From Amoebophrya sp. A120 (taxonomy: Eukaryota > Protista > Dinoflagellata), in assembly GCA_905178155.1 (NCBI GenBank), contig CAJINV010000006.1:1613876-1677875 (forward strand): a stretch of 64,000 bases of DNA, written 5' to 3'. The first letter of the stretch is position 1, and each line of letters starts with the position of its first letter. The notes under the pieces are model-generated. The model was not told where the DNA came from. It made no database searches and was given only the letters and a program-made list of their open reading frames with translations. Both the position numbers and the translations under genes were made by a program. Below are positions 45,001 to 63,799 of the stretch, in pieces.

Positions 45001-48000
45001 ATTTTTACATTTGATAAGAAGGACCCGAGAACATTTTCGCGGTCGAAGAGATCCACACGAACCGCACGCGGCTCCTCGAGCCACCGCCGTCCGTGCTCGA
45101 GCTGCACCAAGAAGCATCGCAGGACCCGAACTGCCCCCGCACGCCGCACGCACACCACCTCGGGTACGAAAAAGATGGCGTATCCTGAGTAAAAACGTCC
45201 CCACACCAGAGTCAGGATGGGGATTTTGCAACACAAACCTAGGAGTTTTGGGAGTCACGCATGACAAGTTGCACTCCGCAGTGTAGTGCAGGCTAGCAAG
45301 TGCAGCCGCATGACAGATTCATCAGCTCATCCTGTTCACAGCATCACAAATTCCAAAACACGATGGGAAATGGCTATGGCTCTCATGGGGATGCGCATTG
45401 CAAGTCTTCCTGTCTTTGCAAATCTGCATTACAACTCTGGCGTGGGTACGTTTTTCCTCAGGATATGGCGTCGGGGCGCGCTACGCTTACGACGCAAGAA
45501 GCTATCAGGCCTGCCTCCTTTTGTGCGTCGACAACTCCAGGTGTATCCACAGTAAATTTCCTGTAGTACACGTACAAACGCTGTCTCTGCATGACAAAAT
45601 TTGCCTTCAATCCTAGTCTAGCATGACAAGTTGGACACTGCAAGTTAGCGAAATTTGTCATGCATTTTGTACATGTACGGGAAATTTACATTGCATAAGG
45701 TGCAAGGGCTTTACATACCGAGTTGATGTACCCCCACCAGCATCTTCTTCCTCTACGGGAGAGCAGCTGCCCGGCGCAGCAGATGCTTCCTCGTCCTCTG
45801 CCGGACCGGTTACAGAATACCCGATTCCCCGATCGCGGGATGCCACCGAATACTGCGCGAGGCTGGAAAATGTCGACTTTCCCGATAGCGATGAGGATCT
45901 GATAGAAGACGACGGTAAGTTGTTCGGGAATAATCTCGGAGAGTTATCGTAAGGAAAAATCCTAATCCCCTTTCCCCATATTGAAAACGTACCCTCCTGA
46001 AAATTTGTGTTGCAGATTTGTGACCACAAATCCGGTTTGTCATGCAAGAAGGCAAATCCAGGCTGTCTACCGCGTTATGTAGGCGATTTGTAATGCTGTA
46101 AGGCCTACAGGGCAGACGTCTGCCATGCTAGGTGCCTACAGCAAGAGGCCCCTGTCTAGGCTTGCGAACTGCGTGCGTTGCTCTATTGCAGGACAAATTT
46201 GATTTGTGCGCAGAAATTCCGCATCACAGATTTCCGTCTTGATATGGGGAGGGGGGATTTTTCATTTTGATAAGAGTGGAAGAAGACTGGCGGGGATAAC
46301 AAGGACGTGTGGCAGAATGCGATCCGTGGGCACAAAACGTTTCACGAGTGTTGGGCTGCCTGTTTAGACGAAAAAGACTGTATGGCCTTCGTGTATAAGA
46401 TATCAAATGTAAAAATGTCTGGGTCTGGAAGATTCTGACATTTGTCATGCACGTTTTGCATGAGCCATGATGTCTGTGATGCATACCCTAGCAATACAGA
46501 TTTTTTGAGGGCTTCTTGATGCCTATTCCGCATGACAAATGCCTCCTCAGCGTAGCAAAAGTTGCATTCTGTTTGCTACTCATGCAATACAGATTTTTTT
46601 GGAATCCAAATACAGCATCACAAGTTACATTCTTCCAGACCCAGACATTTTTACATTTGATATAAGAAAAAGCTCACCGTCGACTCCGCGGAAGACAACT
46701 GCTTGCTAAAGTCGCGCCTGCGACTCGAGACCGCGACGTACACCAATGACGAATCCGCTTGCTGCGACTCTGTGCTGATGCCCCCCAACTGCAAGGAAAA
46801 GGTGAAAGCGGTGAAAGATGTTGACCAGTCGGATGGAGGTCGTGCCTATCAAATGCAAGAATGTCTGGGTCTGGAAGATTGCGAGATTTGTGATGCATAT
46901 TTCGGATCACGCAAATGGCGTCTGATGCAGGCAAAAGCATGACAGGTTTTGAGCACGCCTCATGATGCCTGTCCCGCATGAGAAACTTCCTACCTGCGTA
47001 CCAAGAAATGGACAGCTTTTGGCGCTCATGCAACACAAATTTCTGTGTGTTGCAGAGTTTGCATGACAAGTTCCAACTCTTCCAGACCCAGACATTTTTG
47101 CATTTGATAGTGCCCCCGCCCAGCCGACGTGTTTTCTTCTCGACGACGCTGACCGTGTATGAAAGTGCACAACTCCCCTCCCCCTCATTTGTCATGCAAA
47201 ACACCAAATCCACGTCCTGCCTTTGGGCATTATCTGCATGCCAAATTTGGGAACCTCAAACAGCACTACGACCTGTATGCAGATTTGTCATGCGGAAGTC
47301 ACATGTCTGCGGTTACTTGTGTTGCTGTTCATGCAATACAAATGAGGGGGAGGGGGAGTTGTGCGCCCTTATACCGTAAATTTGCCGTGGAACAGAATGA
47401 TCCCAGCGCTGATACCTTCGCCGTGGAGATGACCGCCGCCTGTCGGCAGTCAAAACAGACCAAGTGCGATATGACTTGCTCAAGCGTTACAATCTCAAAC
47501 GTTACAATAGAATCTGGAATTTGTGTTGCATGATGGGCATGACAGACTCGCACAGCGTTCCACCTTTTGCAATACAAATTTCCCCTGATTGTAGTGGGGT
47601 TTGGAGCTCCGGAACTTGTCATGCGCAACCCTATGAGAGTTGGCTGGATCATGCTCATCATGCAAGACATCAAATCTCAGATTCTATTGCAACGTTTGAG
47701 ATTGTAACACCTGAGCGGGTTATATCCGAGGGCTGCCGCACCGAGAGCGACCACGTAAACGATTGTTCGCTTACCTGTGCTGGCCGCGGGGGTAGCGGTA
47801 GCAGCAGCTCGGGCGATGATCAAGATTCGGCGAAGGATAGAAACCCCGCCGCGGGCTGGTGCTCGAAGTGCGATTCCCAGGATGGCACGCTGCACGGCGC
47901 CGTATGGATTTGTCAGGATCGAAATCGATAAAGTTGAAAGAATTTATGTATGATGCATGAAACGGATGTAAGTTGGCGCCCAGTTTTCAAGTGGCGCATG

Positions 48001-51000
48001 ACAAATTTGGGCGAAACCAAAACCCAGTTTGTTATGCTGCTTGGGTAAGGAAGACGCCTTTTGTCATGCTACTTTAGCAGCTCTATTTCTGCAACCTCTC
48101 GGCAGGCTTATAACCTGCCTCACTTGCCAACTCTGCAAGCCAGGCATTTTGTGGACACACGCCCCGGTTCCATAGTCACAAAAATGCACAGTAAAAGTTT
48201 GATCTTATCTTAAATGCATTGTAGGTTCAAAAAGGACTTCAAAAAATGACTTGCATAGAGACACACTTAAATTTGTGTGATAGGTCCAATCGGTTTATAA
48301 ATTTCTACATGCAGAGCGACTTTGTAGTTTTTGGCTCCTTCACACAAATTTAGAACGGAAAATCAAAAAATAAAGATATGATCAAACTGAGGGGGAACGC
48401 ATACAGCATAGGAATTGCACTGAGAGGATTTTATGCTTGGACTTTATGAACCGCGCACAGGAATCCGAATTCGCCGCACATTAATGGGCTCGACTTTGCG
48501 TTGGGTTTAGGCCGGTGCTCAAGGCGAGGAGAAGGAATTTCTTCGTGGATTATCTAAACAACAACGACGAGAACAACACCGATGGGTTGATTACGGTTGG
48601 AGTGTAAGTGTTCCGAGTACTTTAAATTACAAGTTTTTCAACTTTGTCAATTTCGATCCTGACGCAACTTCCATACGCGTGCTGTCAGGCGTACAACTAC
48701 GCCGATCCGAGCGAGTGTCGCCACGACTACAATTTTCTGTTGCAGACCCGGCCCTCGCACGCACGGAAATATCACCAGTGTGTTTTGCCACAGGTGCGGC
48801 GCCCGAAGTATTCGGCGGCGGTTCTGTATGGAAGCGTCAGGATTGAAATCGTCAAAGTTGAAATAATTTCTCATGCATAAATTGCAAGGCATGAAGTGCC
48901 TCTCTTGCAGGGACGGCAAGTGAGGCCGACTGTCAGCCTGTTTGGGGTCTGCGGTAGAGCTGCTGAAGTAGCGTGACAAAAGACGCCTTCTGTCCCAAAA
49001 CAGCATGACAAACTGGATTTAGACGTGGCCGAAATTTGTCATGCGCCGCTTGAAAATTGGACTCCCAACTGGTATCGATTTTATGCATTACAAGTTATTT
49101 CAACTTTGTCGATTTCAAACCTGACACTCCCATATTCTGGACTCCTCGTCCACCCTGCGTGCTGTTCCGACGCCAGAGAATATCGCAAGAAAAAACTGTT
49201 TCACTGGGAACTTGTGATGCAGAAAACGAAACACCAAAGTGTTTGTCTTGCTACACCTGCATAGAGCATTGGAGTTTCTTCACGCGTGTTTTACCCTATA
49301 GGAAATGCACGCATGGCAGATTTTCAGTGTTATGTGTAAACAAACTTGTAATGCAGATCTTGCAAAATCACCACAGTGAAGCGGCTTTTTCGTGGGATAG
49401 AGAAGTACTGCGGTCCGCCAAACACCTTTTTCCAGAAGATTTTCCTATCCTGTGTAAAAACGTCCCCTCCAGCCCAGAGTTGTCATGCAGATTTGCCATG
49501 ACAGGAGCATTTGTGATGCGCAACCCCATGACAGGCGTTTTCAATAGTGTTTGGGAATTTGTAATGCTGTAAACAGGAAGATAAGCAGATCGATTTGTAA
49601 TGCGGCTTTCCTTGCTATCTTTCACTACCTTAACCTTACGGACTGCAACTTGTCATGCGTCACCTCCAAAACTCCTAGGTTTCTGTTGCAAAATCCCCAT
49701 CTTGACTCTGGGGTAGGGACGTTTTTACTTCGGATATTTCCGCGAGGTGATCCATCCGGCCAAGGGGGAAGGCGCGCTGTCTTGCCCACCCGACGTACGA
49801 ACTGCAAAAGCATCGCACTTCTAGTAGTAATTGCCTAATACAAATTACCTCAGCATGACAAATGGAATTTGTGATGCTGTTTTAGCTTGGGATGGTGGAG
49901 ATTTGTAATGCATAACTGCAACTACTACGAGTGCGATACTTTTGCACAGGATACGCCGAGTTAGAGAGCAACACCGCGCCCCTTGGGCCTGGCACCGGAT
50001 CGACTTACCACCTGTATCGTAATTGGACAGCCTGTATGAAGTGCAAAACAAGCATCGTACCTGTATAAATTGCAATACAAATTGGCTCAGCATTACAAAT
50101 TGAATTTGTAACGCGGATTTGCCTTGAAACAAAGATTTGTAAATGCATAAAAGCAATTAATAGTACGAGTGCGATACAACTTTTGCACAGGACAGCCTGC
50201 GCTGCCGTGCCGGAGTGCCCGGTGGACTGTATCAAATGTCAAAATGTCTGGGTCCTCTGGAAGATTGCCAGGTTTGTCATGCACGTGGTGCATGACGTGT
50301 GAGGTCTGTGATGCGTGCCCTAGCATCACAGATTTTGTGAGATCTTTACCATGCCTTTTCCGCATGAGAAAATGCCTCTCGGCCTTCTCAAAAGTGAACA
50401 GCTTTATTGGTAATCATGCTGCGTGATTCCCTGGGTCTTACAGTTGCATGATGCAACACAGATTTTTGTATGATTCAGATTTAGCATGACAAGTTGTACT
50501 CTTCCAGACCCAGACACTTTTGCAATGCATAGACTGTAAGACTTCGGCGTGGAGGACGGATGAAACTGCGGACGACTGCTTTTATGGATTGTAAAAATGT
50601 CTGGGTCTGGAAACTTGTGATGCATGTCAGTGAACGGAAAGCGCCTTGTAATGCACCGCCAAGCATGACAGATTTTCTCGTGGCTCTCTGTTGCGTATTC
50701 CGCATGAGAAACATCGTTTTTGCATGACAGACAAGAGGAGGTCTTCGTGGCCACGCAATACAGAGTTCAGAGTCATGCCAAACTAGCATGAGAAATCTCG
50801 AAATCTTCCAGACCCAGACATTTTTGCAATCCATAGTTTTAACAACAAAACCAATTTGCCCGACAACTCTCTCGTGGACGGTACCTACCCTGTGTAAAAA
50901 CTTTTCCAACTATATGCAAGAAAAAAACTATGTGAGTGTAAATCTGTGATGCAGAAAGTGCAAAACTGTTACACTTGTCATGCTGGATCTGCGTCATACG

Positions 51001-54000
51001 CTACTTTCATACGTGTTTCCACGTACTAGCTGCGCATGACAGATTTTCCCTGTAATGCAAAGGTAATTTGTGATGCTGCTTTTCCTACACAGTTACACTT
51101 ACACAGTTTTTTTCCTGGATAAACTACCCATAGTTCTTGCCATGCAAATCTGCATTGGAGGTGAAAATGTCTCTCACGCGGAGCCCCATGACACGCATTT
51201 TCTACTGCTGTTTGAAGTTTGTGATTTACCTACAATCAGCATGAGAAACAAGATTGGTGATGCTGCTGCGCTAGCTCAAGATCGCGATTACATTTTTGCG
51301 AACCCAGCAAATTTGTCATGCGCAACAGCCAAAGCTTGCTAATTTGTCTTGCAGATTTCCCAACTTGTTGACTCTGGGGTCGGGCCGACGTTTTTACATA
51401 TGATTACACGCCCTGTCTCAAGGACGGGGAGCGGTACTACAGAAGAAAGGTCCGCGACGTGGATATCCTGTGTAAAAACGTCCCCACCCCAGAGTTGTCA
51501 TGCAAATGTGCAATGACAGGAACATTTGTAATGCGCATCTCCTTGAGAGGCATTTCCAGTTGTGTTTTGGAATTTGTAATGCTGTAATCAGGATGAGCAA
51601 ATGGCTTTTTCATGCGGCTTTCGTTGCGAACCAGCACTACACTGCAGATGGAAACTTGTCATGCAGAACTCCCAAAGCTTGGAGATTTGTGTTGCAGATT
51701 TCCCATCTTGACTATGGTGTGGGGACGTTTTTACATAGGATAGTGGAAACGCCAATGCTTCATGGTGGGAAGGAGTGCCCGAGTGGGTGGTGCAAGGCCG
51801 GGGAACTGGAGCAATTGTTCAAATTATTCCATGACAAGCTCGCGGCCCGCCCAACATATCCTGAGTAAAAACATCCCCACACCAGAGTCAAGATGGGGAT
51901 TTTGCAACACAAACCTAGAACTTTTGGGGGTCACGCATCACAAGTTGCAGTCCGTAGTGTAGTGCAGGCTCGCAAGGCCAGCTGTATCAGGAATCCATCT
52001 GCTCATCCTGTTTACAGCATTACAAATTCCAAAACACGACTAAAAATGCCTCTCCTGGCGATGCGCATTACAAATGTTCCTGTCATTGCAAATCTGCATG
52101 ACAATTCTGGCGTGGGTACGTTTTTACTCAGGATACAACATCGCAGCGGGTCACGTTTGAAGACATCGACTCGGAGGCTATCAAATGTAAAAGTGTCTGG
52201 GTCTGGAAGATTGCCAGGTTTGTCATGCACATTTTGCATAACTCCTGATCGATCTGTGACGCATGCCCTAGCATGACAGATTTTGTGAGGGCTTCCTGAT
52301 ACCTACACCGCATGACAAATGCTCTTTCCGTGTAGCAAAAATTGGACTCTCTTTGCTGCTCATGCAATACAGATTTTTTCAGGATCCAAAATCAGCATGA
52401 CAAGTTGGATTCTTCCAGACCCAGACATTTTTACAGTTGATAGAGGCAGTAACGGACCAACAACTGACCGAGCCTGAGGTGATTACCTTCGTGGACAACG
52501 GTGTTGACAATGATGACACCCTGCTGAATATCAAATGTAAAAGTGTCTGGGTCTGGAAGAATGCATGTTTGTCATGCTTGTCTGGCATGACTCGAGAATC
52601 TGTCATGCACGTTGCCCAAGAGCCGCATTTTTCTGTCATGCGGAGACGCAGTTTGTCATGCAGAATAGGCAACACCTACAAGCTTAGAAATTTGTCATGC
52701 TGAGCCAGCACATGTGGCCCCCTCATGCTACGCCACTCAGCATCACAAGTTTCCAGACCCAGACATTTTTGCAGTTCATACTGAAGACGAAGAAGCAGTT
52801 TTTCTCCTGGATCCGAAGGCAGGACCCCGGCCTATCAACTGTAAAAATGTCTGGGTCTGGAACAAAGCAACTTGTCATGCTATATCAATATCTGAATCAT
52901 GTAAAAATCTGTGTTGCATGATTGCCAAAAGCTGTCCACTTTTGACCTAATCGAGAGGCAGTTTCTCATGCAGGATAGGCATGATAGAACTCTCACAGAA
53001 TCTGTCATGCTCTGTCCTACATGCCCGACCTCATGGGTCATGGAAAACCTGCATGACAAGTCTAGCACTCTTCCAGACCCAGACATTTTTGCACTTGATA
53101 CGGCCTTCCTGGTTACCAGAGCCCCGGCGCCGACCCAGGGTTCGAAAACATCGGGAAAGAGGAATGGCTGACAACTTTACATCTGCAGTTTGGCTTGGAG
53201 TGGATCGAAAAGAAGGATTTGGACAATCTGAAAAAAGTTTTGACCGGGGGGCCGCAGGTTCAGAACACGGACACCTGCATATGACAGTGCACAACTCCCC
53301 CTCCCCTTCCTTTGTCATGCAGAGCCCCAAATGCAAGTGCTTCCCTTTGGCACTGTTTGCATGACAGATTCCGGAAGGAGCCCAAACGCAAACAGTGCTA
53401 CACGAGGCGCATAAATTTGTCATGCACAGGCTCCACATGTGCTGGTGTTTGTATTGCTGTTTGTGCAACATCAGAAATGAGGGGGAGGGGGAGTTGTGCA
53501 CATTCATACTGAAAGGATGCGCTTCACTACAAAGATTTCGACGATGACTTTTGTATCAGCAGTAGCGGATACAAAGATAAGCTTCCCCGCTGTCCTATCG
53601 CATGCGAAATGACGGTATGAACTGCAAAAGTATCGTACTAGTATGAATCGCATGACAAATTTCCACAGCATGAGAAATAGAATTTGTGATGCGGATTTAA
53701 CTTGGCAAAAAAATTTGTAATGCATGAATGCGATTAGTACGAGAACGATGCTTTTGCAGAGGATAGACGGACTGGGAGGATGATTTGTCCCATTTTGGAC
53801 ACTATTAAATGCAAAAATGTCTGGGTCTGGAAGAATGCATGTTTGTCATGCTTGTCTGGCATGACTCTTAAATCTGTCATGCACGTTACCCAAGACCTCC
53901 ATTTTTCTCTGATGCAGAAACGCAGTTTGTCACGCAGAGTAGGCAACACCTAGTAGCTCGGAAACTTGTCATGCTGAGCCAGCACTTGTGGCCTCATCAT

Positions 54001-57000
54001 GAGACGCCACCCAGCATCACAAGTTTCCAGACATCCAGGAATTTTTACATTTGATAGACACAAAGTTTTCCACTTCTCCGAGCTCCGGGAGGTGGAACGA
54101 CGGCGTATGGATTGCAAAAATGTCTGGGTCTGGAAGGTTGGAACTTGTGATGCTAACTTTGGACTCTAAAAAATTCTGTATTGCATGACCAGCAAGAGGA
54201 GTCCGGTTTGTGCTACGCGTGGAGGGCATTTGTCATCGGAGCAGGCATCAGGAAGGCCTCTAAAAATCTGTGATGCTAGGGCTTCCATGACAGACATTCT
54301 GTGTCATGCAAAAAAAGCAATAGGCGTGGGCCTGTAGGCCTAAATTCCGGTCGGTTGGTCGGTTGGTTGGTTGGTTTTGGACAGACGACAACTGACCGAA
54401 CCCGCTGCATTGTGTTTTGTGTTCTTCTGCGATTCGTCTCTTATTACTGTTGAGGCTGCCTACCTACCCACCTACCTGGCGTCTTTTCGATTCATTGTAG
54501 TACCGTGATCGCACCGACCCACCTACCTACCTATCCGCTGCCACCCAGAGACAGCTGCCTACTGGTCACGCCTACCGACCCACCTACCCACCCTCATGGT
54601 GGGTAGGTGGGGCGAGGGAGCGCGCGCTGCCTATTGGCCACGCCTACCGACCTACCGACCCACCAGCCTGGTGGGTGGGTGGGGCGAGGGTGCGCTGCCT
54701 ATTGGCCACACCTACCGACCTACCCACCCACCTCGCTGGTGGGTGGGTGGGGCGAGCAAACGTTGCCTATTGGCCACGCCCACCGATCTACCCACCCACC
54801 GCGCTGGTGGGTGGGTGGGGCGAGCAAACGCTGCCTATTGGCCATGCCCACCGACCTACCCACCCACCGCACTGGTGGGTGGGTGGGTGGGGCGAGCGTG
54901 CGCTGCCCCTTGGCCACGCCTACCGACCTACCCACCCACGAGCCTGGTGGGCGGGTGGGGCGAGCGTGCGCTGCCTATTGGCCACGCCTACCGACCTACC
55001 CACCCACGAGCCTGGTGGGCGGGTGGGGCGAGCGTGCGCTGCCTATTGGCCACGCCTACCGACCTACCCACCCACCTCGCTGGTGGGTGGGTGGGGTGAG
55101 CGTGTGTTGCCTCTTGGCCACGCCTACCGACCTACCCACCCACCTGCCTGGTGGGTGGGTGGAGCGAGCGCGCGCTGCCTATTGGCCACGCCTGCCGAGC
55201 GACCTACCCACCCGCCAGGCAGGTGGGGGTGTGGGGCGAGCGTGCGCTGCCTACTGGCCACGCCTACCGTCCTACCCACCCACCTGCCTGGTGGGGGGCG
55301 GGGCGAGCGTGCGTTGCCTGTTGGCTACGCCTACCGACCTACCCACCCAGCTGCCAAGCGGGGGGGGGCGAGCGGGTGTTGGCTATTGGCCACGCCTACC
55401 GACCTACCAACCCACCTGCCAAGCGGGGGGGGAGGGGGTCGGGCGAGCGTGCGTTGCCTATGGCGCAATTTACTAGCAGGGGGTTTGCAAGCAAGGGACT
55501 CGCGCAGCCAAGGGGTTGCGCAAAAAGCCTCCGCGCGGCATGACCAAGCGGGGGCTGATCCAAATTTATTTTGCGCGAGTTTGTCTCTATTTCCCGAGTG
55601 TGTTTTGCTCGGGTTGAGGAAACACAGGTCGAGGCTGGAGAAAAGTGCAGCTCTGGAGCCCCGGCCTCTTTCGATCTCACAGGCGCAAACTCTCACGAGG
55701 CCCCCCGGAGCTCCGACTGCGTCCACGCAGCACAGATCTGTGTCTGCAGCGAGCTGCGCGCACCACTGATTTGTGTTGCGCGCGTCACAGATTCGCGCCC
55801 ACGCAGCGCAGATTTGTGTCTCCGGCGAGCTGCGCGCAACACAGATTCGTGCGCAACACGCAGCACAGATTTGCGCGCAGCGCCGATTTGTGCTGCGCGC
55901 ACGCAGCGGAGATTTGTGTCTGCGGCGAGCTGCGCGCAGCACAGATTTGTGGTGCGCGCAACACAGAGTTGCGCCCACGCAACACAGATTTGTGTCTGTG
56001 TTGCGTGGACACATCGAAGTCTCCTTCTGCCGAGACCTTTCTGCCGCCCTGGCGGAAGTGCCTACTGGGCGGCGATAGGATGCGGCGCTACCAGCCTCGC
56101 AGGGGCGGGCTGCAGCCCCGGTAGGGAGGCAGGTGCTCCGCGCGCCCCGACCACCCCCCTATCGTGTTTCGCCCTCCTTGCCGTTGCGGTTATCTTCTAA
56201 AGTCAAAACCGATGTGCGTTTTTCCATAATTCGTAAATTCGGTCAGTTGTCGTCTGTCCAAAACCAACCAACCAACCGACCAACCGACCGGAATTTAGGC
56301 CTACAGGCCCACGCCTACTCAAAAAAAGCATAAAAAATTTCGGATTCTTCCAGACCCAGACATTTTTACATTTGATACGGCGGGAGGTGGAACAACCAGG
56401 CGGCCCTGCTGGTTCCTTTCTGCAACAAAGAACGGAGCCACCACTTCTGTCTGAGCCACGAACTTCTGCCGCTGTTGATTCCTTTCTGCAAGCGGAGCCA
56501 CGACGGTCTGAACCAGACGCCGGCCTTTTTTCTTTTTTGCAAGCCACCACAGCAGATGGCGATGGCGCTAAGTTTATCTATCTTGACACGTGGCAAAGCA
56601 AATACGAGTCCTTTGCTTCAAAAAACGAATGGAAGTGGGACGCAGACAACAAAACCGCGAAAGTGACCTTCTACGCTAGAACACCAAGCAGTTCTTCTCC
56701 CACAACAACCCAACTGCAGAAGCATAAAGAAGAGATAGCCAAAATCTTCCGCAAGCTTGACTTTGACAAAGATGAAAAGTTAAGCGAAAAAGAGTACAGC
56801 CGGTTTTTACAAGATCCCGCGTGCAAAAATTTTTGCACCGACGATGCAACAAACAAGCCGCGGCAAAAAAAGCAGCTGCGGAGAATCAGGATTCAGCCGC
56901 AGTACGACGGAACCGCATGTCCGGCTGAGGAGCGGCCAACTGTTTGTAAAGATCCGTCGACGACTCCCGATTTGCCTGTCGGACCCTGTCCCCACGACTG

Positions 57001-60000
57001 CGCGTTTATGGCGTGGGGGAGCGATAATCTGTGTTACAACATGACCAATGACAAGGTATCCACTGCAAACATTGATCTGGGTCTGAAAGGTAGTTGCAAC
57101 TTGTTGTATATGCTGTCTACTTCGGATTATTTTTCTAAAAAAAGTGTGCTGTTTTTGCACGATCAGCAAGAGCAGGAGTCCAGTTTGTGCTACGCGGAGA
57201 GGAAATTCAAATTTACTCATGCGGAATAAGCATCAAGAAGATCTCTAAATTTATGCCATTTTTGTTCATTACAGGCAAAGGCATCATGGTCCATGCAAAA
57301 TATGCATGACAAACCTGGCAATCATCTTCCAGACCCTGACATATCGGCAATGCATACAAGGTGGTGAATTGTAAAACAGACACCGAATACGGCTGTTGGG
57401 ACAAAGCTCACCCCAACAGGTATCGCAAGAAAAAAACTGTGTAAGTGTAAATCTGCAATGCAGAAGAACATGCAACAGATTTACGCCCGTGGTCATGCCG
57501 GACAGCCATGAAGTGCTCTTTTTATCTGTGTTTTCCATTGCAAGAGCAAGACACGCATTTTTTTTGTCATGTAGAGCAAAGTTGTGATGCTATTGCTATC
57601 AGCCAAAGATTGTTACACTATTAACACAGGAGTTTTTCTCTCGGATAACACGGGCGCGCAGTGCAAAGACGAGCAAGGGCAGCCGGTGCCCCCGGCGCAG
57701 TATTATCGCATATACACGCGGTCGGTCACGGAACAGACGAATGACGGCAAGCCCTGCCCGGCCGAAGATTCCCTGTGCACCGAGCACCATGAACACGACT
57801 GTACGAATATCAAAAGGAAAAATCCCCCCTCCCCATATCGAAACGAAATTTCTGATGCTGGATTTGCGTACACAAATCAGGTCTGTCTTGCTGGAGAGGA
57901 CTGCAGGCATATACCAAGCCTGGGTCGAGAGGTTTTGACGTAGGGGACTAGCATGACAGACGTCGGCCCTGTAAGCCCAACAGCATCACAAACCGCCGGC
58001 ATAATGCGGCGGACTCTCTGGCTTTGCCTTCTTGCAAGACAGACAGGATTTGTGACCTCAAATCTGCAGCACAAATTTTCAGACGAATGCGTTCTCAATA
58101 TTATGGGGAGGACGGATTTTTCCTCTCAATAACGAAGCAAAACGTTCGCGTGTACCACAACCATGACCAGTGCACCTCCACCGAACCCGGTGTCCCTTCG
58201 CTCGGCTGGTGCGCGATTGACTGCCAGGTTAGTGAGTGGAACCAGACCGACCTGGAAAAGGTGTCCCGGTGCCTGCGCGACGTGACGCAGCCACCCGCCC
58301 CTTATCAAATGCAAATATGTGGTCTGGGTCTGGAAGATTCTGAGACTTGTGCTGCACGTTTTGCATGAGCCATGACGTCGATGATGCATATGTCCTAGCA
58401 TCACAGAGGACTTTTTGAGGGCTTGTTGATGCCGATTCCACACGACAAATACCCCTACTACCGCGTAGCAAAAATTCCTTTCCCTTTGCTGCTCATGCAA
58501 TACAACTTTTTGTAGAATTTGAATGCAGCACCACAAGATGCATTTCTCCAGACCCAGATGACACATTTGCAATGTATACCCCCCCAAAAGTTGTCGGCCC
58601 CCACCGGTTTCCGAAGAACTTTTTCAGCCAACCGAAGGGTGAAAATGAAACATTTTGCATGAAACCCTTTGCGAACCCAGCGGAGGAAGGAACGTACTAC
58701 CAGAAACTTGTTCGCACGGTGCTGCTATCCCAGAAAAAAAGGCCAGACGGTGTAACTTTGACTTTCTTGGCGGAATAGCATTTTTACAAACATGTGGTCT
58801 TCTGGAATGATAGGAAAATCCCGCCATAATCATGCGCAGATTGTGCATTGAAGCGCACTTCTTGAATGGACCCTACAAATACAATGAATTTCCAGCATGT
58901 CTACAGGTGCAATCATCTAGCATGTTCTTGCGCATCACAAAGTTCTTACACTAACAATGCTTTTTTCTGGCATGATAGCTGCGGCCCGCGAACCACACTG
59001 GCGCCGTTGCGGGTAGGAGTGTGAATCACCTCCCCACCCCTTTGAATCACCTCCCCACGCATCACCCCGCCACCCGGATCACCTACCCACCTCCCCCGCA
59101 TCACCTCGTGATGCGGCCGCATCACCACCGCAACGGCCGGAGGTGATGCAGAAGCAGAGCCGGCTGCGGCCTTGGTTGTTTAGGGTCTAGGGTTTAGGGC
59201 TCGGGGTTTAGGGTCGTCGAGGCCAGCCGGCGCGACGGTGCGCGCCGTCGCGCCGGCTGGCCTCGGCGATTCTCTTCTCCTCGTGTTGTTCCCCCCTTCT
59301 CCGCCCTTGGGCGCCACCCTTTTGGTTTCCGCTTCTCCTAGGTCCTTATATATGTTGTTCCATTTTCGTCACCTTAGGGCCGCCGGCCGCCATCTGGCGG
59401 CCGCGTACATAGGCGGATCTGTCACGCAGCATGAGGGCTCATGTGCGTTGTGGCAGATACCTGGCTTCATGGCCGCGAGGTAGATCGATGGCACAGAAGC
59501 CAAGCAGCAAGCATCCAGACGCAGTCACGTTCTGGTCGACCATCACGGGGAAGTGCAACGCAGTGGGGAAGTGCTGGACGACTGGGAGGTGGGGAGGTGG
59601 GGAAGTACCTCCCCACCTTCCCACTACTGGGGAGGTACCTCCCCACACGTGGGGAGGCACCTCCCCAGGGTGGGGAGGTAGGGAGGTGGGGAGGTGATGC
59701 GTGGGGAGGTGATTCACACCATAACCTTAGCCGTTGCGTGTCCGACGGGAGAAACGGACAGTCATAACCCTTCGTACCCGTCAGTCGATGCCATCCCCAA
59801 GGACGACATGACTTTCAATGTCTACAAGGATTTCAACGCTTGTACTGAGGACCACTTACACTACTGTCCTTTCGATTGCCAGATGAGCGACGACTGGGCG
59901 GCGCAGGTGCCCCCTGGAACTCCGGAACCCGTGTGCTACAACAGTGAGACACACCAGCCGGACCACAGCCATAACAAGGCGGACGGAAAGCCATGCGGCA

Positions 60001-63000
60001 TAGAAGGGAAGCGCTACTACAGGAATTACACGCGCAACATCGCCATGTTGCCCGACGGCGTGACGCCGGCCGAGGCCAAGTACGGGGGCAAGGGGTGCCC
60101 GACGGGGTTGTGCCCGACCGAATTATTCGACAAGGACGGCCCACCAACCGAGAGGCCGCCCACCGCTTGGGCGAAGTGCAATAAGCAGGATGGGGCGCAT
60201 ATGGAAGTAGCGTCAGGTTTGAAACCGACAAAGTTGAAATAGTTTGTGACGCATGAATGGCAAGGCATGAAGTGCCTCTCTTCTTGCAGGGATTTTTGCA
60301 AGTAAGGCCGACTGTCAGCCTGTTCGGGGTCTGCGATAGAGCTGCTAAAGTAGCATGACAAAAGACGCCTTCTATCCCTAAACAGCATGACAAACTGGAT
60401 TTAGCCGGTTCCGAAATTTGTCATGCGCCGCTTCGAAATTGCGCTTCCAACTGGTATCCATTTTATGCATGGCAAATCATTTCAACTTTGACGATTTCAG
60501 TCCTGACGCTTCCATAGCGCAGTCGGATTACGCAGAATACCACGACTTTTTCGAGCCCGCTTGCCAAACGGCGCCGCCAGGTTCGTTGATGCTGTGTCCG
60601 GTAGACTGCGTGATGAAGCCGTGGAACGAAACCAAGGCAGCAGATCTTTCCCTCTGCGCCCTCGACGAGAGTCCGGTCCGGCCGAAATTACCGATTTACG
60701 GTCCGGACGAAATTAAAACGGAGCGCGTGGTTATAGAGGAACTACCATCTCCAGGGGGGAAGGAGAAGGGCAAGAAGTACTGCAAAAAGGGCCCTTCCGA
60801 GCGCTGGTACCAGATTTTGTTCCGGGGAGTAAAGACTGAGGCGAACAAAAGTCCCGAGAGCAAGCAATGCCCAACCGGCGAGGAGACAAGCAATAATGCT
60901 GCCTACAACACGGCAGCAAGCTATCGAATGCAAAAGCACCGTAAAAATAGTATAAATTGCATTACAAATTAGCTCAGCATTACAAATAAAATTTGTAATG
61001 CTGAATTACCTTGATAAAAAGATTTGTCATGCATAAATGCAATTACTACGAGTACCTACGATACTTTTGCATTGCATAAAAGCTTCAAAGCAAGCAATCC
61101 CGACGAGTATCCGGATCCGGAAACAAATCCTGACGCTACCCTGGGTATGAAATGCAAAAATGTCCGGGTCTGGAAGAATGCAACTTGTGATGCTGTATTT
61201 GGATTCCAAAAAAACCTGTATTGCATGAGTAGCAAACAGAATGCAATTTTTTCTACGCTGAGAAGATATTTGTCATGCGGAATAGGCATCAAGAAGCCCT
61301 CAGAAAATCTGTATTGCTAGGGTATGCATCACAGACATCATGGCTCATGCAAAACGTGCGTGACAACGACAAGTGTCAGAACCTTCCAGACCCAGACACT
61401 TTTACAATTGATACTGGGACCGCTGCGCCGCTTCAAAAACTACACAGCCTGTGACCCCCTTCCGATGTGTCCCGTGGACTGTGAGACCACTGCGTGGGAG
61501 AACGAAGATCCATCGCAGCCGAACTGTTTCAACGCCAAGACAGACGCCGTGGACACGCGCAGAGACACGGGGGCCCCGTGTCTGCGAGGACAGGTATGAA
61601 ATGTAAAAATGTCTGGGTCTGGAAGATTCTGAGACTTGTCATGCATGTTTTGCATTGGCCATGATGTCTGTGATGCATGCCCTAGCATCACAGATTTTTT
61701 GAGGGCTTCGCGATGCCTATTCCGCATGACAAACACCACTCCGCGTAGCAAAAATTGCATTCCCTTTGCTGCTCATGCAATAAAATAGATTTTTTTGGAA
61801 TCCAAATTCAGCATCACAAGTTGCATTCTTCCAGACCCAGACACTTTTACATTTGATAACAGGGCGCCCGGTACTACCGCAAGAAGACCAGGAGTGTGAA
61901 GACAGAATCTTATCCTGTGCAAAAGTATCGTACTCGTAGTATTTGCAATCATGCATCACAAATTTTTTTCTCAAGGTAAATCCGCATCACAGATTTTATA
62001 ATTTCTCATGCTGAGAAAATTTGTAATCGTAATGCATTTTTACGAGTACGATACTTTTGCAATTCATAAATCTGCCCACGGCGGCAAGGAGTGCCCGGCA
62101 CCGGACGGAGTGGAGTGTCAGGCGGGTACCCTGGAGGATGTGTACGAATTGATTAAGGGCAAGCTGGAGAAGTGCACGCCGCCCGAGGGCCCCAACAAAA
62201 AAGAACGCTGTACGCCTGTGACGACCGGCATCGCTGCCGACGGCAAAATCACTTTCCAGGACCTGGACTCGGCGAAGGACGACAATCTCGTGGACCCGGA
62301 AGTGATGGCGTTCGCGGACCAGAATACAACACTTGGTGGCAGGTTCCGGTCATGGTTTGACACAGAAGACCAGAACTCACAGATAACCCTCGCCGAATGG
62401 CGCAGGACGCTTTATCTCCTGTTCCAGAAAGAGTGGATCGAGCTATCAAAAGGAAAAATCCTCCCTCCCCATATCGAAAACGAAATTTGTGGTGCTGTAT
62501 TTGAGTACACAAATCGACTTGTCATGCTAGAATGCCAAGAGACGCAGCTGTGGCCTCGTTTGCAGGCAATTTGTCATGCTGTATCCCACTTCCAGCTGCC
62601 CCCTGTCATGCTGAAGATGCAAGGCTTTCCCACGCCAACCAGCACTACAGTCCGCATATCTACCCTTCTAGCATGACAAAGCTGATTTGTGGTCGCAAAT
62701 CTGCATCACAAATTTCTAGTTTGAGTATGGGGTGGGAAGATTTTTCACTTTGATACGAGCGCAAGGACCTCCCGCGGCTGAAAGAGATCCTCGCGGGGGG
62801 CCGAGAGGTGGCCAGCGAGGCAACGTGCAATGATGTACGCAGATACAGGGACTACAAGGATCCACAGTGTAGTATTGTACCACCTGGCGCTTTACCGCAG
62901 GGGCAGGCTGCGGCGGAAAATGAACTGCCCAGGTGCGAGATTGACTGCTCGCTGGGAGTATCAAATGTAAAAATGTCTGGGTCTGGAAGAATTGGAACTT

Positions 63001-63799
63001 GTGCTGCTAACTCTGGTCTGTAAAAAAATCTGTATTGCATGACCAGCAAAAGGAGTCTAGTTTGTGCTACGCGGCGGGGAGGGCGTTTGTCATGCGGAGC
63101 AGCCATCAGGAAGCCCTCTAAAAATCTGTGATGCTACGTCGTGCATTACAGACATCCTGGGTCATGCAAAACATGCATGACAAGTCTCAGAATCTTCCAG
63201 ACCCAGACACTTTTACATTTGATAGGGAGAGTGGCAAGACGACGAATCCGCTTTCGGAGACATATGGCATTCTCAAGCGTTACGCTCTCAACTGTTACAT
63301 GAATTTGTCACGCAAGAACAGCAACAGTGAAATCGTCACAACGTGCAAGAACTCTCGCATCACAAATTATTCCGAGCAGATTTTAATGCTGTTTAGCCCT
63401 TCCAGAATTTGTCATGCGAAGTAACCGTGGTCGTCTGGCGGCTTATGGTAATTTTGCATGACAAATGATGTAACGCTTGCCAATGTAACATTTGAGAATG
63501 CTATAAGACAGAGTGTTCACGTTTGACGAGCTGAAGGACGAGGTCGTAGCCTACATTGTATCCTGTGCAAAACAAGTATCTGATACTCGTATTGCAGTCA
63601 TGCATTACAAATGTTCTCCTTAAGGTAACTCCGCATCACAAATTTCATTTCACATGCTGGGGAAATTTGTAATGCATTTATACGAGTCTACGACACTTTT
63701 GCAATGCATATATTGACCTAAACACCAATAAACCGCAACAGTTTATCACCCGTGCCAACTGGTTCGCGAAGTACGAAATATTAGCGGCCGCTGAGCAGG
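1..63799 (+). CDS. Giant multi-exon gene (about 150 exons, partial at both ends) encoding a thrombospondin type-1 repeat, Cys-rich adhesin-like protein
   Basis: GC-rich spacers between TAT..ATA elements join in frame once the element plus one 5-bp repeat is removed. Examples: DCQLSDWSDW|GSCSTTCNP (across 5027-5176), PVHCEW|NEWQNYGQC (across 8837-8989), TRTRT|RS (across 2883-3140). Recurrent WxxWxxCSxTCGxG, RxRxR, GGxxC and CPVDC motifs are typical of spondin-type TSP1 repeats. Many but not all junctions were translated by hand, and no stop was found in the joined frame. Confidence 0.85.
1354..1616. mobile_element. Introner family A (44 copies, about 250-300 bp); representative copy
   Basis: TIR TATCAAATGTAAAAATGTCTGGGTCTGGAA; TSD TCCAC here. 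Copies: 19-281, 344-611, 1354-1616, 1938-2199, 2883-3140, 3223-3485, 5209-5471, 6504-6785, 8524-8775, 11133-11397, 11484-11756, 13018-13269, 13934-14184, 14425-14686, 15882-16151, 19123-19384, 20739-21003, 21539-21806, 24758-25008, 26096-26359, 27258-27515, 27574-27838, 28227-28501, 31212-31477, 32748-32999, 33877-34133, 36051-36661, 37133-37384, 38083-38352, 44759-45016, 46401-46662, 46847-47109, 50230-50531, 50583-50835, 52179-52442, 52529-52780, 52833-53100, 53803-54056, 54106-56377, 57057-57356, 58303-58578, 61146-61413, 61595-61858, 62959-63224. Confidence 0.92.
2548..2787. mobile_element. Introner family F (6 copies, about 215-250 bp); representative copy
   Basis: TIR consensus TATGA(G/A/C)AGTGCACAACTCCCCCTCCCCCTCATTTG; TSD TTCCA here. 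Copies: 2548-2787, 7786-8017, 10242-10491, 16961-17190, 47158-47373, 53280-53508. Confidence 0.88.
4079..4408. mobile_element. Degenerate singleton introner
   Basis: TAGGAAATGCAAAAAATATTTATCTGGG ... CCCCGATAAATATC..TTTGCAATGCATA. Its removal bypasses the in-frame TAG at 4079 and joins ERLK to CGTSTT. Confidence 0.7.
4409..4718 (+). CDS. Exon: Pro/Ser/Thr-rich mucin-like linker
   Basis: Frame of ORF 4402..4734 (KKCGTSTTTSPPAPPPPSPTTSPPATSSSS...), bounded by elements 4079-4408 and 4719-4942. Confidence 0.8.
4477..4670 (+). repeat. Coding tandem duplication, 99-bp (33-aa) unit, 2 copies
   Basis: CAACCTCCTCAAGCTCAACAACAAGTCCTTCCGCACC... begins at 4481 and again at 4580. Confidence 0.85.
5027..5176. 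mobile_element. Introner family C (23 copies, about 142-180 bp); representative copy
   Basis: TIR TAT(CCTG/GAAC/GCAT)TGCAAAAGTATCGTACT; TSD ACTGG here. Copies: 1116-1289, 3529-3709, 5027-5176, 8109-8257, 8837-8989, 12238-12387, 13303-13468, 19692-19834, 28544-28717, 30197-30340, 33070-33212, 38523-38673, 38995-39139, 41565-41715, 42250-42399, 43202-43343, 44482-44630, 49796-49953, 50035-50194, 53616-53765, 60922-61078, 61911-62068, 63559-63710. Confidence 0.9.
5855..6102 (+). CDS. Exon: TSP1 repeat
   Basis: DCMYDSWNAWSPCSRSC...TQTRTRVVKQEAANGGELC (ORF 5831 frame). Confidence 0.85.
6172..6217 (+). mobile_element. Short 5'-truncated copy of the same (TGA)n-tailed insert
   Basis: TGTGGCGCTGGGTGCGGGTGTCCACTACA(TGA)5TG, one mismatch to the 3' end of 31707-31997 apart from tail length, at the same position in family D. 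Confidence 0.65.
8258..8523 (+). CDS. Exon: TSP1 repeat
   Basis: DCVMNAWGPWGDCSHTCGEGEKKRTRTVKSEAKNGGTPC (ORF 8329 frame). Confidence 0.85.
8990..9980 (+). CDS. Longest exon: several tandem TSP1 repeats
   Basis: ORF 8939..10003 frame: WHEWGEWGDC, WQWTDCSATCGTTGVRKR, CSKTCGGGVQKKTR, CSGSCGGG...QTR, CPVDC. Confidence 0.9.
10772..11079. mobile_element. Introner family B (13 copies, about 310 bp); representative copy
   Basis: TIR TATGGAAGCGTCAGG(A/T)TTGAAATCG(A/T)CAAAGTTGAAAT; TSD GATGA here. Copies: 672-984, 10772-11079, 13547-13854, 16213-16529, 17946-18251, 23861-24204, 29161-29477, 30850-31159, 40452-40758, 42446-42764, 47903-48675, 48827-49134, 60200-60516. Confidence 0.9.
11757..12237 (+). 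CDS. Exon: TSP1 repeats
   Basis: ETRPCNDHACPVDCVLSSW...CSKTCGMGSQKYKR (ORF 11625 frame). Confidence 0.85.
17191..17549 (+). CDS. Exon: TSP1-like repeat
   Basis: GGKEC...CPKQDCEVSEW...FERTILKQPRNNGTECPELEKWEEC (ORF 17178 frame). Confidence 0.8.
18252..18728 (+). CDS. Exon: TSP1-like repeats
   Basis: Open frame KYKKILQQPRHDGAKNC...DCKVEEGEWKQTPCSKSCDTGRFRKYKR...CNERVCAVDC. Confidence 0.8.
19385..19691 (+). CDS. Exon with EF-hand-like loop inserted in a TSP1-like repeat
   Basis: VFGKL-DFDKNEKLSEEE-YQRFL, a 12-residue loop with D1, D3, N5 and E12 at 19436-19471. Confidence 0.75.
20145..20738 (+). CDS. Exon: TSP1 repeats plus S/T/P linker
   Basis: DCVLHQWEDWGDCSQSC...TQTRSRKV...CNQVECP (ORF 20191 frame). 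Confidence 0.85.
21004..21538 (+). CDS. Exon: Cys-rich non-TSP module
   Basis: ORF 20884 frame: VECWNAC...GFCSKC...GACCRY...DPRECR. Confidence 0.75.
21807..22255 (+). CDS. Exon: Cys-rich module
   Basis: ORF 21865 frame: GLCDKC...KGACCKKG...HAC. Confidence 0.7.
22432..22576. mobile_element. Foldback (palindromic) MITE nested in introner 22256-22694
   Basis: Perfect inverted arms of about 57 bp (TGCTAGCCGGATGAATGCCCAGCAAATGGG...ACATCAAG) around an inner hairpin CTCCTGCTGCA-T-TGCAGCAGGAG. Inserted at a GCTAGC site, so the TSD is TA or CTAG (ambiguous). Confidence 0.8.
23581..23800. mobile_element. Introner family G group (16 copies, about 200-285 bp, several subfamilies); representative copy
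   Basis: TIR TATC(A/G)CAAGAAAAAA(G/C)TG...; TSD AAGTG here. Copies: 1624-1908, 3801-4011, 4719-4942, 7020-7242, 9981-10207, 12426-12642, 15534-15750, 22778-23001, 23581-23800, 35184-35414, 39693-39895, 49181-49399, 50913-51121 (nested), 57421-57647, 58726-58977, 63800 to window end. Confidence 0.85.
24432..24711. mobile_element. Introner family D (21 copies, about 280 bp); representative copy
   Basis: TIR TATCCTGAGTAAAAACGT(A/C)CCCACACCAGAGT; TSD CATCC here. Copies: 5572-5854, 6103-6439, 7297-7587, 16606-16912, 24432-24711, 26408-26686, 26851-27129, 29870-30152, 31645-32207, 35489-35767, 37456-37664, 39365-39650, 40095-40376, 41201-41479, 42876-43154, 43390-43668, 45181-45465, 49446-49736, 50886-51405, 51464-51742, 51857-52135. 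Confidence 0.9.
25441..26095 (+). CDS. Exon
   Basis: ORF 25393 frame between elements 25206-25440 and 26096-26359, ending in RYFKKKILKI...GKACP, the repeat motif of this protein. Confidence 0.75.
31707..31997 (+). mobile_element. (TGA)n-tailed retroposon-like insert in family D introner
   Basis: About 290 bp absent from sister copies (e.g. 41201-41479), ending TGTGGCGCTGGGAGCGGGTGTCCACTACA(TGA)n. Confidence 0.65.
33213..33876 (+). CDS. Exon
   Basis: ORF 33156 frame: YYRERVREIKVQPGFGGDACP...LPPCPVDC. Confidence 0.8.
34411..35183 (+). CDS. Exon: Cys/Asp/Trp-rich segment
   Basis: ORF 34423 frame (CDDDTCYDRENCDEDCYAWCWHHC...). Confidence 0.75.
36296..36639. other. Unclassified insertion of about 345 bp in the right TIR of introner 36051-36661
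   Basis: Flanked by a duplicated CCAGAC from the TIR; lacks introner motifs. Confidence 0.6.
37701..38023. mobile_element. Introner family H (12 copies, about 305-340 bp); representative copy
   Basis: TIR TATCAAAAGGAAAAATCCCCCCTCCCCATAT; TSD GAACC here. Copies: 14767-15103, 17550-17870, 18729-19057, 22256-22694, 23211-23540, 30492-30796, 36759-37083, 37701-38023, 41784-42118, 45945-46272, 57808-58131, 62444-62755. Confidence 0.88.
38784..38940. mobile_element. Introner family I (2 copies in opposite orientations)
   Basis: TATGCAATGTAAATTTCC...GGAAATTTACTGTGGATA with TSD AGAAG. Its near reverse complement lies at 45544-45697 (TSD AGGTG). Confidence 0.88.
40799..41033. mobile_element. Introner family E (10 copies, about 235-270 bp); representative copy
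   Basis: TIR TATGGCGTTCTCAACTGTTACATTCTCAACTGTTACATG; TSD ACCCA here. Copies: 2233-2471, 12731-12973, 15187-15457, 19876-20144, 25206-25440, 32246-32492, 34167-34410, 40799-41033, 44203-44437, 63263-63505. Confidence 0.9.
42119..42820 (+). other. PAN/apple-like domain split across three exons
   Basis: Joined translation LALCQQWCQQDGNCACWSFC...NCCWLKP...PGYTSG fits the C-x3-C-x5-C-x2-W-x-F...C-W-L-K...SG pattern of PAN/apple modules. Confidence 0.6.
43669..44202 (+). CDS. Exon: TSP1 repeat
   Basis: WSACSVTCGTGGKQYRTQRI, containing the CSVTCG motif (ORF 43746 frame). Confidence 0.85.
47470..47724. mobile_element. Introner, singleton family K
   Basis: TATGACTTGCTCAAGCGTTACAATCTCAAACGTTACAATAGAATCTG ... 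CAGATTCTATTGCAACGTTTGAGATTGTAACACCTGAGCGGGTTATA; flanks TGCGA/TCCGA. Confidence 0.8.
48155..48625. other. Unclassified insertion of about 470 bp in introner 47903-48675
   Basis: This family B copy is 773 bp versus about 310 bp for its sisters. The insert is AT-rich with approximate boundaries. Confidence 0.6.
54550..55460. repeat. GC-rich minisatellite, about 60-70 bp unit with internal inverted repeat
   Basis: Unit GCTGCCTATTGGCCACGCCTACCGACCTACCCACCCAC-n-GTGGG(T/C)GGGTGGGGCGAGCGTGC repeated more than ten times. Confidence 0.9.
55725..56005. repeat. Degenerate tandem repeat (GCGCGCA(G/A)CACAGATTTGTG units)
   Basis: Repeated CACAGATTTGTG and TGCGCGCA segments inside the Mutator-like element. 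Confidence 0.8.
56378..57056 (+). CDS. Exon with three SFLQ motifs and an EF-hand-like loop
   Basis: ORF 56372 frame; IFRKL-DFDKDEKLSEKE-YSRFL with the loop at 56759-56794, paralogous to exon 19385-19691. Confidence 0.8.
59012..59729. mobile_element. TIR element with 9-bp duplication forming a probable GT-AG intron (59013-59730)
   Basis: GCCGTTGCG at 59003-59011 and 59730-59738. Subterminal inverted repeat GTGTGAATCACCTCCCCAC / GTGGGGAGGTGATTCACAC. Donor G|GTAGGA and acceptor CCTTAG| are both phase 1. Confidence 0.75.
59179..59213 (+). repeat. Degenerate TTTAGGG telomere-type repeats (5 units)
   Basis: TTTAGGG TCTAGGG TTTAGGG CTCGGGG TTTAGGG. Confidence 0.6.
59731..60199 (+). CDS. Exon
   Basis: ORF 59694 frame: VACPTG...YCPFDCQMSDDW...RYYRNYTRNI...YGGKGCP. 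Confidence 0.8.
60517..60921 (+). CDS. Exon
   Basis: ORF 60418 frame: YHDFFEPAC...LCPVDCVMKPW...WYQILFRGV...KQCP. Confidence 0.8.
62069..62443 (+). CDS. Exon
   Basis: ORF 62008 frame: HGGKECP...RFRSWFD...EWRRTLYLLFQKEWIE, paralogous to exons at 51743-53279. Confidence 0.75.

What the first reader, a model, noticed from the sequence alone, without database searches (positions are those of the whole stretch)
59003..59738. A second intron-creating element class: 9-bp TSD with canonical GT-AG and a 3-codon scar
Seen: this is the only interruption found that is not of the TAT..ATA type. A 718-bp element with CACCTCCCCAC-rich inverted ends is flanked by GCCGTTGCG repeats. GT at 59013 and AG at 59729-59730 (the G comes from the TSD) give in-frame HTGAVA-AVA-CPTG. 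The extreme tips are not symmetric. Inference: a Mutator-like element was intronised through canonical splicing, so two splicing routes would act on one pre-mRNA.
Basis: partly seen in the sequence, partly recalled or inferred. Interest (0 to 1): 0.7.

Follow-up and report, generated by a model that had tools for sequence, protein, structure and literature searches.

The report
Mutator-type intron with private AG
A small Mutator-type jumping element sits in a coding exon of a giant repeat-protein gene of a likely Amoebophrya-type marine parasite and is likely cut out of the RNA, but the standard AG splice end comes from three extra bases seen only in this copy, and an element of this kind is already catalogued in print.

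Summary
Other copies exist: same-strain DNA contigs and two copies in another assembly. They fix the element at 59012-59726 (715 bp, GGT..ACC tips). The TTA that makes the AG (59727-59729) is absent from all right ends seen. Both outside copies sit in long sense-strand reading frames with no in-frame AG near their ends, so GT-AG with a 3-codon scar is not a family rule. No RNA record covered this junction. Canonical (+9), scarless (0) and +3 junctions all keep the frame, and 23 of 115 TAT introners show a chance in-frame GT-AG option too. Best reading: a non-autonomous Mutator-like element, likely removed by the host's non-canonical route, with an optional private GT-AG here (about 35-40% the main product). 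A Mutator introner with 8-9 bp duplications, GG/CC ends and no AG acceptor (0 of 4) is already listed for Amoebophrya A120, as are genes mixing intron types. Real, modest novelty; useful as a natural test of how these introns are cut.

The parts
58726..58977 (+). Upstream TAT..ATA introner with 5-bp repeat GCTGC (context)
58978..59011 (+). Short coding exon piece before the element, ending in the left duplication
59003..59011 (+). Left copy of 9-bp target-site duplication GCCGTTGCG
59012..59726 (+). 715-bp non-autonomous Mutator-like element, tips GGT..ACC
   Evidence: boundaries from other copies; no transposase-sized frame (longest frame lying inside the element 99 codons, stop to stop):
59012..59107 (+). 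Left inverted end with CACCTCCCCAC-type subterminal repeats; GT at 59013-59014 is part of the family tip
59178..59215 (+). Degenerate TTTAGGG-like heptamer run inside the element
59214..59269 (.). Internal 56-nt near-perfect palindrome
   Evidence: I3, 93%
59576..59726 (+). Right inverted end with GGGGAGGT subterminal repeats, ending CATAACC
59727..59729 (+). 3-nt filler TTA private to this copy; its A plus the next G form the candidate AG acceptor
   Evidence: absent in L002, L004 and in same-strain contigs that diverge after 59726
59730..59738 (+). Right copy of the 9-bp duplication
59739..60199 (+). Downstream coding exon (thrombospondin-type repeat module); held by RNA-type contigs
   Evidence: (X3 59952-60102, X4 59994-60152)
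60200..60516 (+). Downstream TAT..ATA introner with 5-bp repeat GCGCA (context)

Best explanation
This is a 715-bp non-coding, multi-copy Mutator-like element (GGT..ACC tips, 9-bp duplication) inserted in a coding exon and likely removed from the RNA by the host's non-canonical, inverted-repeat-associated route rather than by a family-wide GT-AG signal, the AG here being a private product of a 3-nt filler. Shown: boundaries, other copies, coding context, private filler, and that retention ends the frame. Inferred: a transposase encoded elsewhere made the insertion and the duplication; the two ends pair in the pre-mRNA and bring the cut sites together; the usual product loses the element plus one duplication, as shown for the TAT introners of this same gene. 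At this one locus I put the main product at about 40% scarless, 35-40% canonical +9, 15% another in-frame cut (+3, +12, -3) and 10% unspliced.
For: Boundaries and private TTA. Multi-copy: summed contig depth 42-620 over element bins against a flat 26.8 on the next exon in same-strain DNA, 94 contigs laid (not a copy number). 3 of 3 copies with readable flanks lie in sense-strand reading frames: window (retention stops the frame at codon 452 of a 1006-codon stretch), L002 (90 + 335 codons across the empty site) and L004 (497 codons from the right end). With the tip GT as donor, L002's first four AGs are out of frame and the first in-frame one costs 6 codons; L004's costs 14. The host gene's TAT introners are removed scarlessly: database protein P0001 matches 49400-51811 with 6 of 7 gaps equal to element + 5 nt, the seventh being a 525-nt compound stretch; RNA-type contigs skip 329 = 324+5 and 435 = 157+268+10 nt. 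The ends pair in the predicted fold of both full copies. Published A120 fam65 (Mutator, 8-9 bp TSD, GG/CC ends) has 5' gt:2, at:2 and 3' non-canonical 4 of 4; fam71 (721-809 bp) gt:4, non-canonical 4 of 4. A chance in-frame GT-AG option exists near the ends of 23 of 115 TAT introners, YAG in 14. Spacing from G to C in the repeat motif is 1-5 in 44 regex matches; scarless gives 3, canonical 6 (some matches spurious), and the paralogous module P0001 matches the empty site in length.
Against: The filler is 3 nt and creates an in-frame TAG exactly at the junction, facing a GT at the other tip; that is what a rescued, canonical copy would look like. The scarless route is shown only for 5-bp-repeat TAT elements of about 140-340 nt, not for this family. 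L002 and L004 come from another assembly and could be broken alleles or use distant AGs in low-complexity proteins. fam71's GT in 4 of 4 would fit use of the tip GT. Two long RNA-type contigs keep 68-85 nt of diverged left ends, so some relatives are not removed at all. One module of the gene carries a 7-8 residue loop insertion, so +3 residues may be tolerated.
Confidence: 0.55

Rival explanations
1. This copy is a canonical GT-AG intron (59013-59730) leaving a 3-codon scar: the filler broke or out-competed the non-canonical route and the spliceosome uses the tip GT and the new TAG. The family as a whole is still not canonical.
For: In-frame and stop-free; donor G|GTAGGA and acceptor TTAG| are good dinucleotide contexts and sit at the base of the predicted stem; the host type has 30-35% GT-AG introns (PMC7789003).
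Against: Purine-rich sequence before the AG with no pyrimidine tract; would give G-to-C spacing 6, outside 44 matches; 20% of TAT introners have such an option by chance.
Confidence: 0.3
2. The family is a canonical introner of the Micromonas/Aureococcus type: it carries the GT and each surviving copy recruits an AG from its target.
For: GT at positions 2-3 of both tips; same orientation as the host frame in 3 of 3 copies (1 in 4 by chance for a consistent orientation).
Against: No in-frame AG within 25 nt in L002 or L004; here the AG needs a filler; 0 of 4 AG acceptors in fam65 and in fam71 (identity with this family untested).
Confidence: 0.07
3. The element is not efficiently spliced and truncates the protein: a tolerated gene-breaking insertion.
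For: Relatives' left ends are kept in long RNA-type contigs; a giant repeat protein might tolerate truncation.
Against: The frame stays open for about 550 codons downstream; spliced RNA-type contigs exist on both sides; three of three copies lie in intact long frames.
Confidence: 0.08

Closest known systems
Amoebophrya sp. A120 introner fam65 (Gozashti et al. 2025, PMC12130899, Dataset S2; table row read)
   Same: Classed Mutator; '8-9bp TSD, GG/CC termini'; TIR 42-46 bp; few copies (4); non-coding; creates introns in an A120-type genome.
   Different: Listed length about 627 bp against 715 and 728 here (same-strain contigs do show internal deletions); all four 3' sites non-canonical, whereas this copy offers an AG. 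The table holds no sequence, so identity is untested.
Amoebophrya sp. A120 introner fam71 (same table)
   Same: Lengths 721-730 and 809 bp, 4 copies, GT at 5' in 4 of 4.
   Different: TIR called 10-12 bp (here at least 19 bp perfect); no class or TSD assigned; 3' non-canonical in 4 of 4. Identity untested.
TAT..ATA introner elements of Amoebophrya A120 (Farhat et al. 2021, PMC7789003; abstract, passages, sections 5 and 16, supplement passages and Table S4 read)
   Same: Inverted ends plus direct repeats, hairpin-forming, non-autonomous, in coding exons; genes with both intron types are described there.
   Different: TAT tips, 5-bp repeats, about 140-340 nt and thousands of copies, against GGT tips, 9-bp repeat, 715 nt and low copy number.
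MULE family Muta1 of Aedes aegypti (PMC5225508; passages read)
   Same: 8 or 9 bp TSDs, long TIRs with short subterminal tandem repeats and an imperfect terminal motif, non-autonomous derivatives with variable interiors.
   Different: No transposase partner shown here; no sequence homology tested; Muta1 is not reported as intron-forming in the passages read.
Introners of Micromonas, Aureococcus and Polarella that carry one splice site and recruit the other from the TSD (PMC11282704 and bioRxiv 10.1101/2020.10.14.339549; passages read)
   Same: A 5' site at positions 2-3 of the element and a 3' AG near the TSD, as in Polarella class 13.
   Different: There the pattern is consistent across a family; here it appears in 1 of 3 copies and needs a filler.

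Membership tests
Mutator-like elements (MULE), non-autonomous | 8-10 bp target-site duplication | tested here: met
   Window 9 bp exact but offset by a 3-nt filler; L002 8 of 9 (8 bp exact plus one base)
Mutator-like elements (MULE), non-autonomous | Long terminal inverted repeats, often with subterminal tandem repeats | tested here: met
   feature from PMC5225508
Mutator-like elements (MULE), non-autonomous | GG/CC termini (criterion used for fam65) | tested here: met
   GGT..ACC in window, L002, right end of L004, and same-strain contig breakpoints
Mutator-like elements (MULE), non-autonomous | Autonomous partner with MULE DDE transposase sharing the ends, or homology to curated MULEs | not testable with these tools
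   No genome held; no repeat library; the element itself has no transposase-sized frame
Introner (intron-generating transposon) | Several similar copies whose likeness stops at the element edges | tested here: met
   88-89% identity to L002 and L004 with unrelated flanks; breakpoints in same-strain DNA
Introner (intron-generating transposon) | Copies interrupt coding exons | tested here: met
   3 of 3 copies with flanks
Introner (intron-generating transposon) | Removal from mRNA shown by RNA | tested here: inconclusive
   No RNA record reached the junction
Canonical carry-5'/co-opt-3' GT-AG introner | Element carries the GT donor | tested here: met
   GT at positions 2-3 in window and L002
Canonical carry-5'/co-opt-3' GT-AG introner | In-frame AG recruited from the duplication in each copy | tested here: not met
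   L002 and L004 lack one; the window's needs the private TTA
A120-type TAT..ATA introner | TAT tips and 5-bp direct repeat | tested here: not met
   GGT tips, 9-bp repeat; 94 of 128 catalogued TA-type elements have a perfect 5-bp repeat
A120 fam65 or fam71 | Sequence identity to the family consensus | not testable with these tools
   No consensus in 13 of 14 supplement files searched for 12-nt motifs (file 14 not searched; long cells cut; figures not held)

The most novel reading that the evidence does not exclude
The host's unexplained non-canonical splicing removes a second, unrelated transposon class with a different tip and a 9-bp duplication, so the cut would be set by the hairpin and direct repeat and not by a fixed 5-nt ruler or tip sequence; and this copy, having gained TTA, is caught converting into an ordinary GT-AG intron, with both products made from one site. 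Because 0, +3, +9 and +12 junctions are all in frame, this locus is a natural experiment that separates repeat-guided, ruler-type and spliceosomal site choice.
Probability: 0.2. Interest if true: 0.65.

Novelty: new member of a known kind. Interest (0 to 1): 0.3.

Why it matters
How Amoebophrya removes its tens of thousands of non-canonical introns is open (PMC7789003 reports no U1 snRNA found). A family with a 9-bp duplication, and one copy with an in-frame filler and a chance GT-AG, gives distinct predicted junctions for each model, so a handful of reads would be informative. As a discovery it is modest: a Mutator introner of this description and genes with mixed intron types are already listed for A120.

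Tried and rejected
RNA junction: no run was on record as an RNA holder. X3 and X4 have zero depth over 59632-59915 (190 joints and most pieces not shown); X5 has none beyond 59223 and shows no joint; X7 laid 2 reads, X8 and X9 none, so they are no test. This is no evidence either way. Annotated protein across the junction: no hit at 276-2000 or 86-275 residues; the representative search gave one hit, a paralogous module. More copies: 2 of 4 metagenome matches (L001, L003) share only 19-21 nt and were dropped as chance; 0 in viral contigs and 0 in prokaryote genomes; the records behind L002 and L004 are not held for wider reading. Idea that the element ends in ACCG with an 8-bp duplication: fitted L002 and L004, but the consensus of two same-strain flanks begins with A, so the G is not fixed. 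Idea that first-base mismatches in duplications mark the cut: mismatches in 129 TA-type elements are spread over all five positions (12, 7, 8, 7, 9); rejected. A supposed canonical intron near 48605-48688 lies inside an introner with a nested insertion; rejected. Pfam finds nothing in the downstream exon; TSP1 families hit another exon of the same frame. Literature searches listed no paper on the junctions of this family; Huff et al. 2016 is not held. Look-ups of earlier findings by place and by sequence were empty.

Full report
Context. The window reads as one very long + strand gene. A rough dynamic-programming model gives about 7,700 codons after removing 133 TA-type elements and the focal element; it still needs 9 forced frameshifts and has 4 stops where elements were missed. 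An exon at 8996-9979 hits thrombospondin type 1 families (PF19028, E 1.7e-24). Of 128 catalogued TA-type interruptions 94 have a perfect 5-bp direct repeat and 27 one mismatch. TAT tips followed by an A run and 5-bp repeats match the description of Amoebophrya A120 introners (PMC7789003). The host is therefore inferred to be A120-type; no genome is held for the window.

Observation. GCCGTTGCG lies at 59003-59011 and 59730-59738, GT at 59013-59014 and AG at 59729-59730. The ends are inverted repeats with subterminal tandem units, and the RNA is predicted to fold with the ends paired (z -18.9 against 20 shuffles, much of it from internal palindromes). The bracketing repeat is not chance (p about 6e-5). 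No transposase-sized frame lies inside.

Other copies. A 19-nt pattern scan of metagenome contigs gave 4 loci; 2 are real copies at 88-89% identity and 2 share only the pattern. L002 holds a full 728-bp copy flanked by an 8-of-9 duplication; L004 holds a right half at a contig end. Both end CATAACC with no TTA. In same-strain DNA (X1, identical to the window on unique pieces) summed depth over the element is 42-620 against 26.8 on the next exon, and contigs leave the window sequence at 59012 and 59726, two at each (26 loose-end rows not shown; depth is not a copy number). Joints in that run show internally deleted copies (skips of 50-543 nt). The family unit is thus GGT..ACC, 715 bp here, and TTA at 59727-59729 is private.

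Coding context. Over 56383-63558 the frame is open for the whole 1006-1009 codons with the canonical (+9), scarless (0) or +3 junction, and stops at codon 452 if the element is kept. A GC donor at 59001 gives a further -3 option. The paralogous module P0001, the only hit among 1.84 billion representatives, has the same number of residues up to the cysteine as the empty site, which confirms the ancestral single copy. L002's empty site lies in an open frame of 90 + 335 codons and L004's right end is followed by 497 open codons, both on the element's sense strand.

Is GT-AG a family property? With the tip GT as donor the AG must end 4, 7 or 10 nt past the tip to keep the frame. In L002 the AGs end at +6, +8, +11 and +23, all out of frame; the first in-frame one (+28) removes 6 codons. 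In L004 they end at +21 and +26, out of frame; the first in-frame one (+52) removes 14 codons. About 18% of 1,132 exon sites would give an in-frame AG and 6% a YAG by chance, and 23 of 115 TAT introners have a chance in-frame GT-AG option, 14 with YAG. One such option in three copies is unremarkable, except that here it depends on a filler.

How the neighbours are removed. P0001 matches window 49400-51811 in eight exact blocks; six of seven gaps equal a catalogued element plus 5 nt and one is a 525-nt compound stretch. RNA-type contigs skip 329 nt (324+5) and 435 nt (157+268+10) next to the focal element. The host thus removes inverted-repeat elements plus one duplication without GT-AG. Whether it does so for a 9-bp, 715-nt element is inferred, not shown. 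No RNA record reached the focal junction (see Tried and rejected). Two long RNA-type contigs (2,426 and 2,662 nt) keep 85 and 68 nt of diverged left ends, and the first flank recurs in X3 and X4 (all three runs are one sample), so some relatives stay in transcripts.

Weighing the locus. If the filler blocks the normal route, only a canonical rescue would survive; if it does not, the AG is an accident with about the same joint probability. The coincidence therefore does not decide the matter. The G-to-C spacing of the repeat motif (1-5 in 44 regex matches, some spurious; scarless 3, canonical 6) leans slightly to scarless. My estimate for the main product is about 40% scarless, 35-40% canonical, 15% other in-frame, 10% unspliced; these figures are judgement.

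Comparison with print. Gozashti et al. [quoted passage not shown] Motif searches found no sequence of the element in 13 of 14 supplement files, so identity is untested; figures and any external consensus files were not seen and may bear on this. Farhat et al. 2021 describe genes with both intron types and report inverted and direct repeats in 15% of A120 canonical introns. MULE features follow PMC5225508; carry/co-opt introners follow PMC11282704 and the Polarella preprint.

Verdict. A real, low-copy Mutator-like element that probably acts as an intron. The class-level claim of canonical splicing is not supported; the locus-level claim is open. New member of a known kind, possibly an already listed family. 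Interest 0.3.

Noticed in passing
window 54321-56317: A 2-kb element with long inverted ends (tips AATAGGCG / AGTAGGCG), a 10-11 bp duplication and a 68-bp tandem array, nested inside the TAT introner 54106-56377; its tip resembles the focal GGTAGGAG tip, so it may be a second Mutator-like family.
   Followed up: partly
window 1-64000: The whole window appears to be one thrombospondin-repeat gene of over 7,000 codons with more than 130 introners, some with EF-hand-like inserts; P0001 shows six scarless removals in it.
   Followed up: partly
window 47905-48676, 36051-36661, about 31646-32210, about 22256-22693: TAT introners carrying nested insertions of several hundred bases, one AT-rich (about 48154-48610) and one with an internal palindrome (about 22430-22580).
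   Followed up: no
window 59372-59378 and 59724-59730: The junction ACCTTAG also occurs inside the element, and TTAG is the core of the telomere-like repeat the element carries at 59178-59215; the filler may be templated. Speculation.
   Followed up: no
run X5 records 9 and 11: Two abundant long RNA-type contigs retain diverged left ends of this family, one near a contig end and one in the middle.
   Followed up: no
L002 527-2478 and L004: Both outside copies interrupt long low-complexity reading frames in contigs that also carry TAT..ATA introners like the window's.
   Followed up: partly
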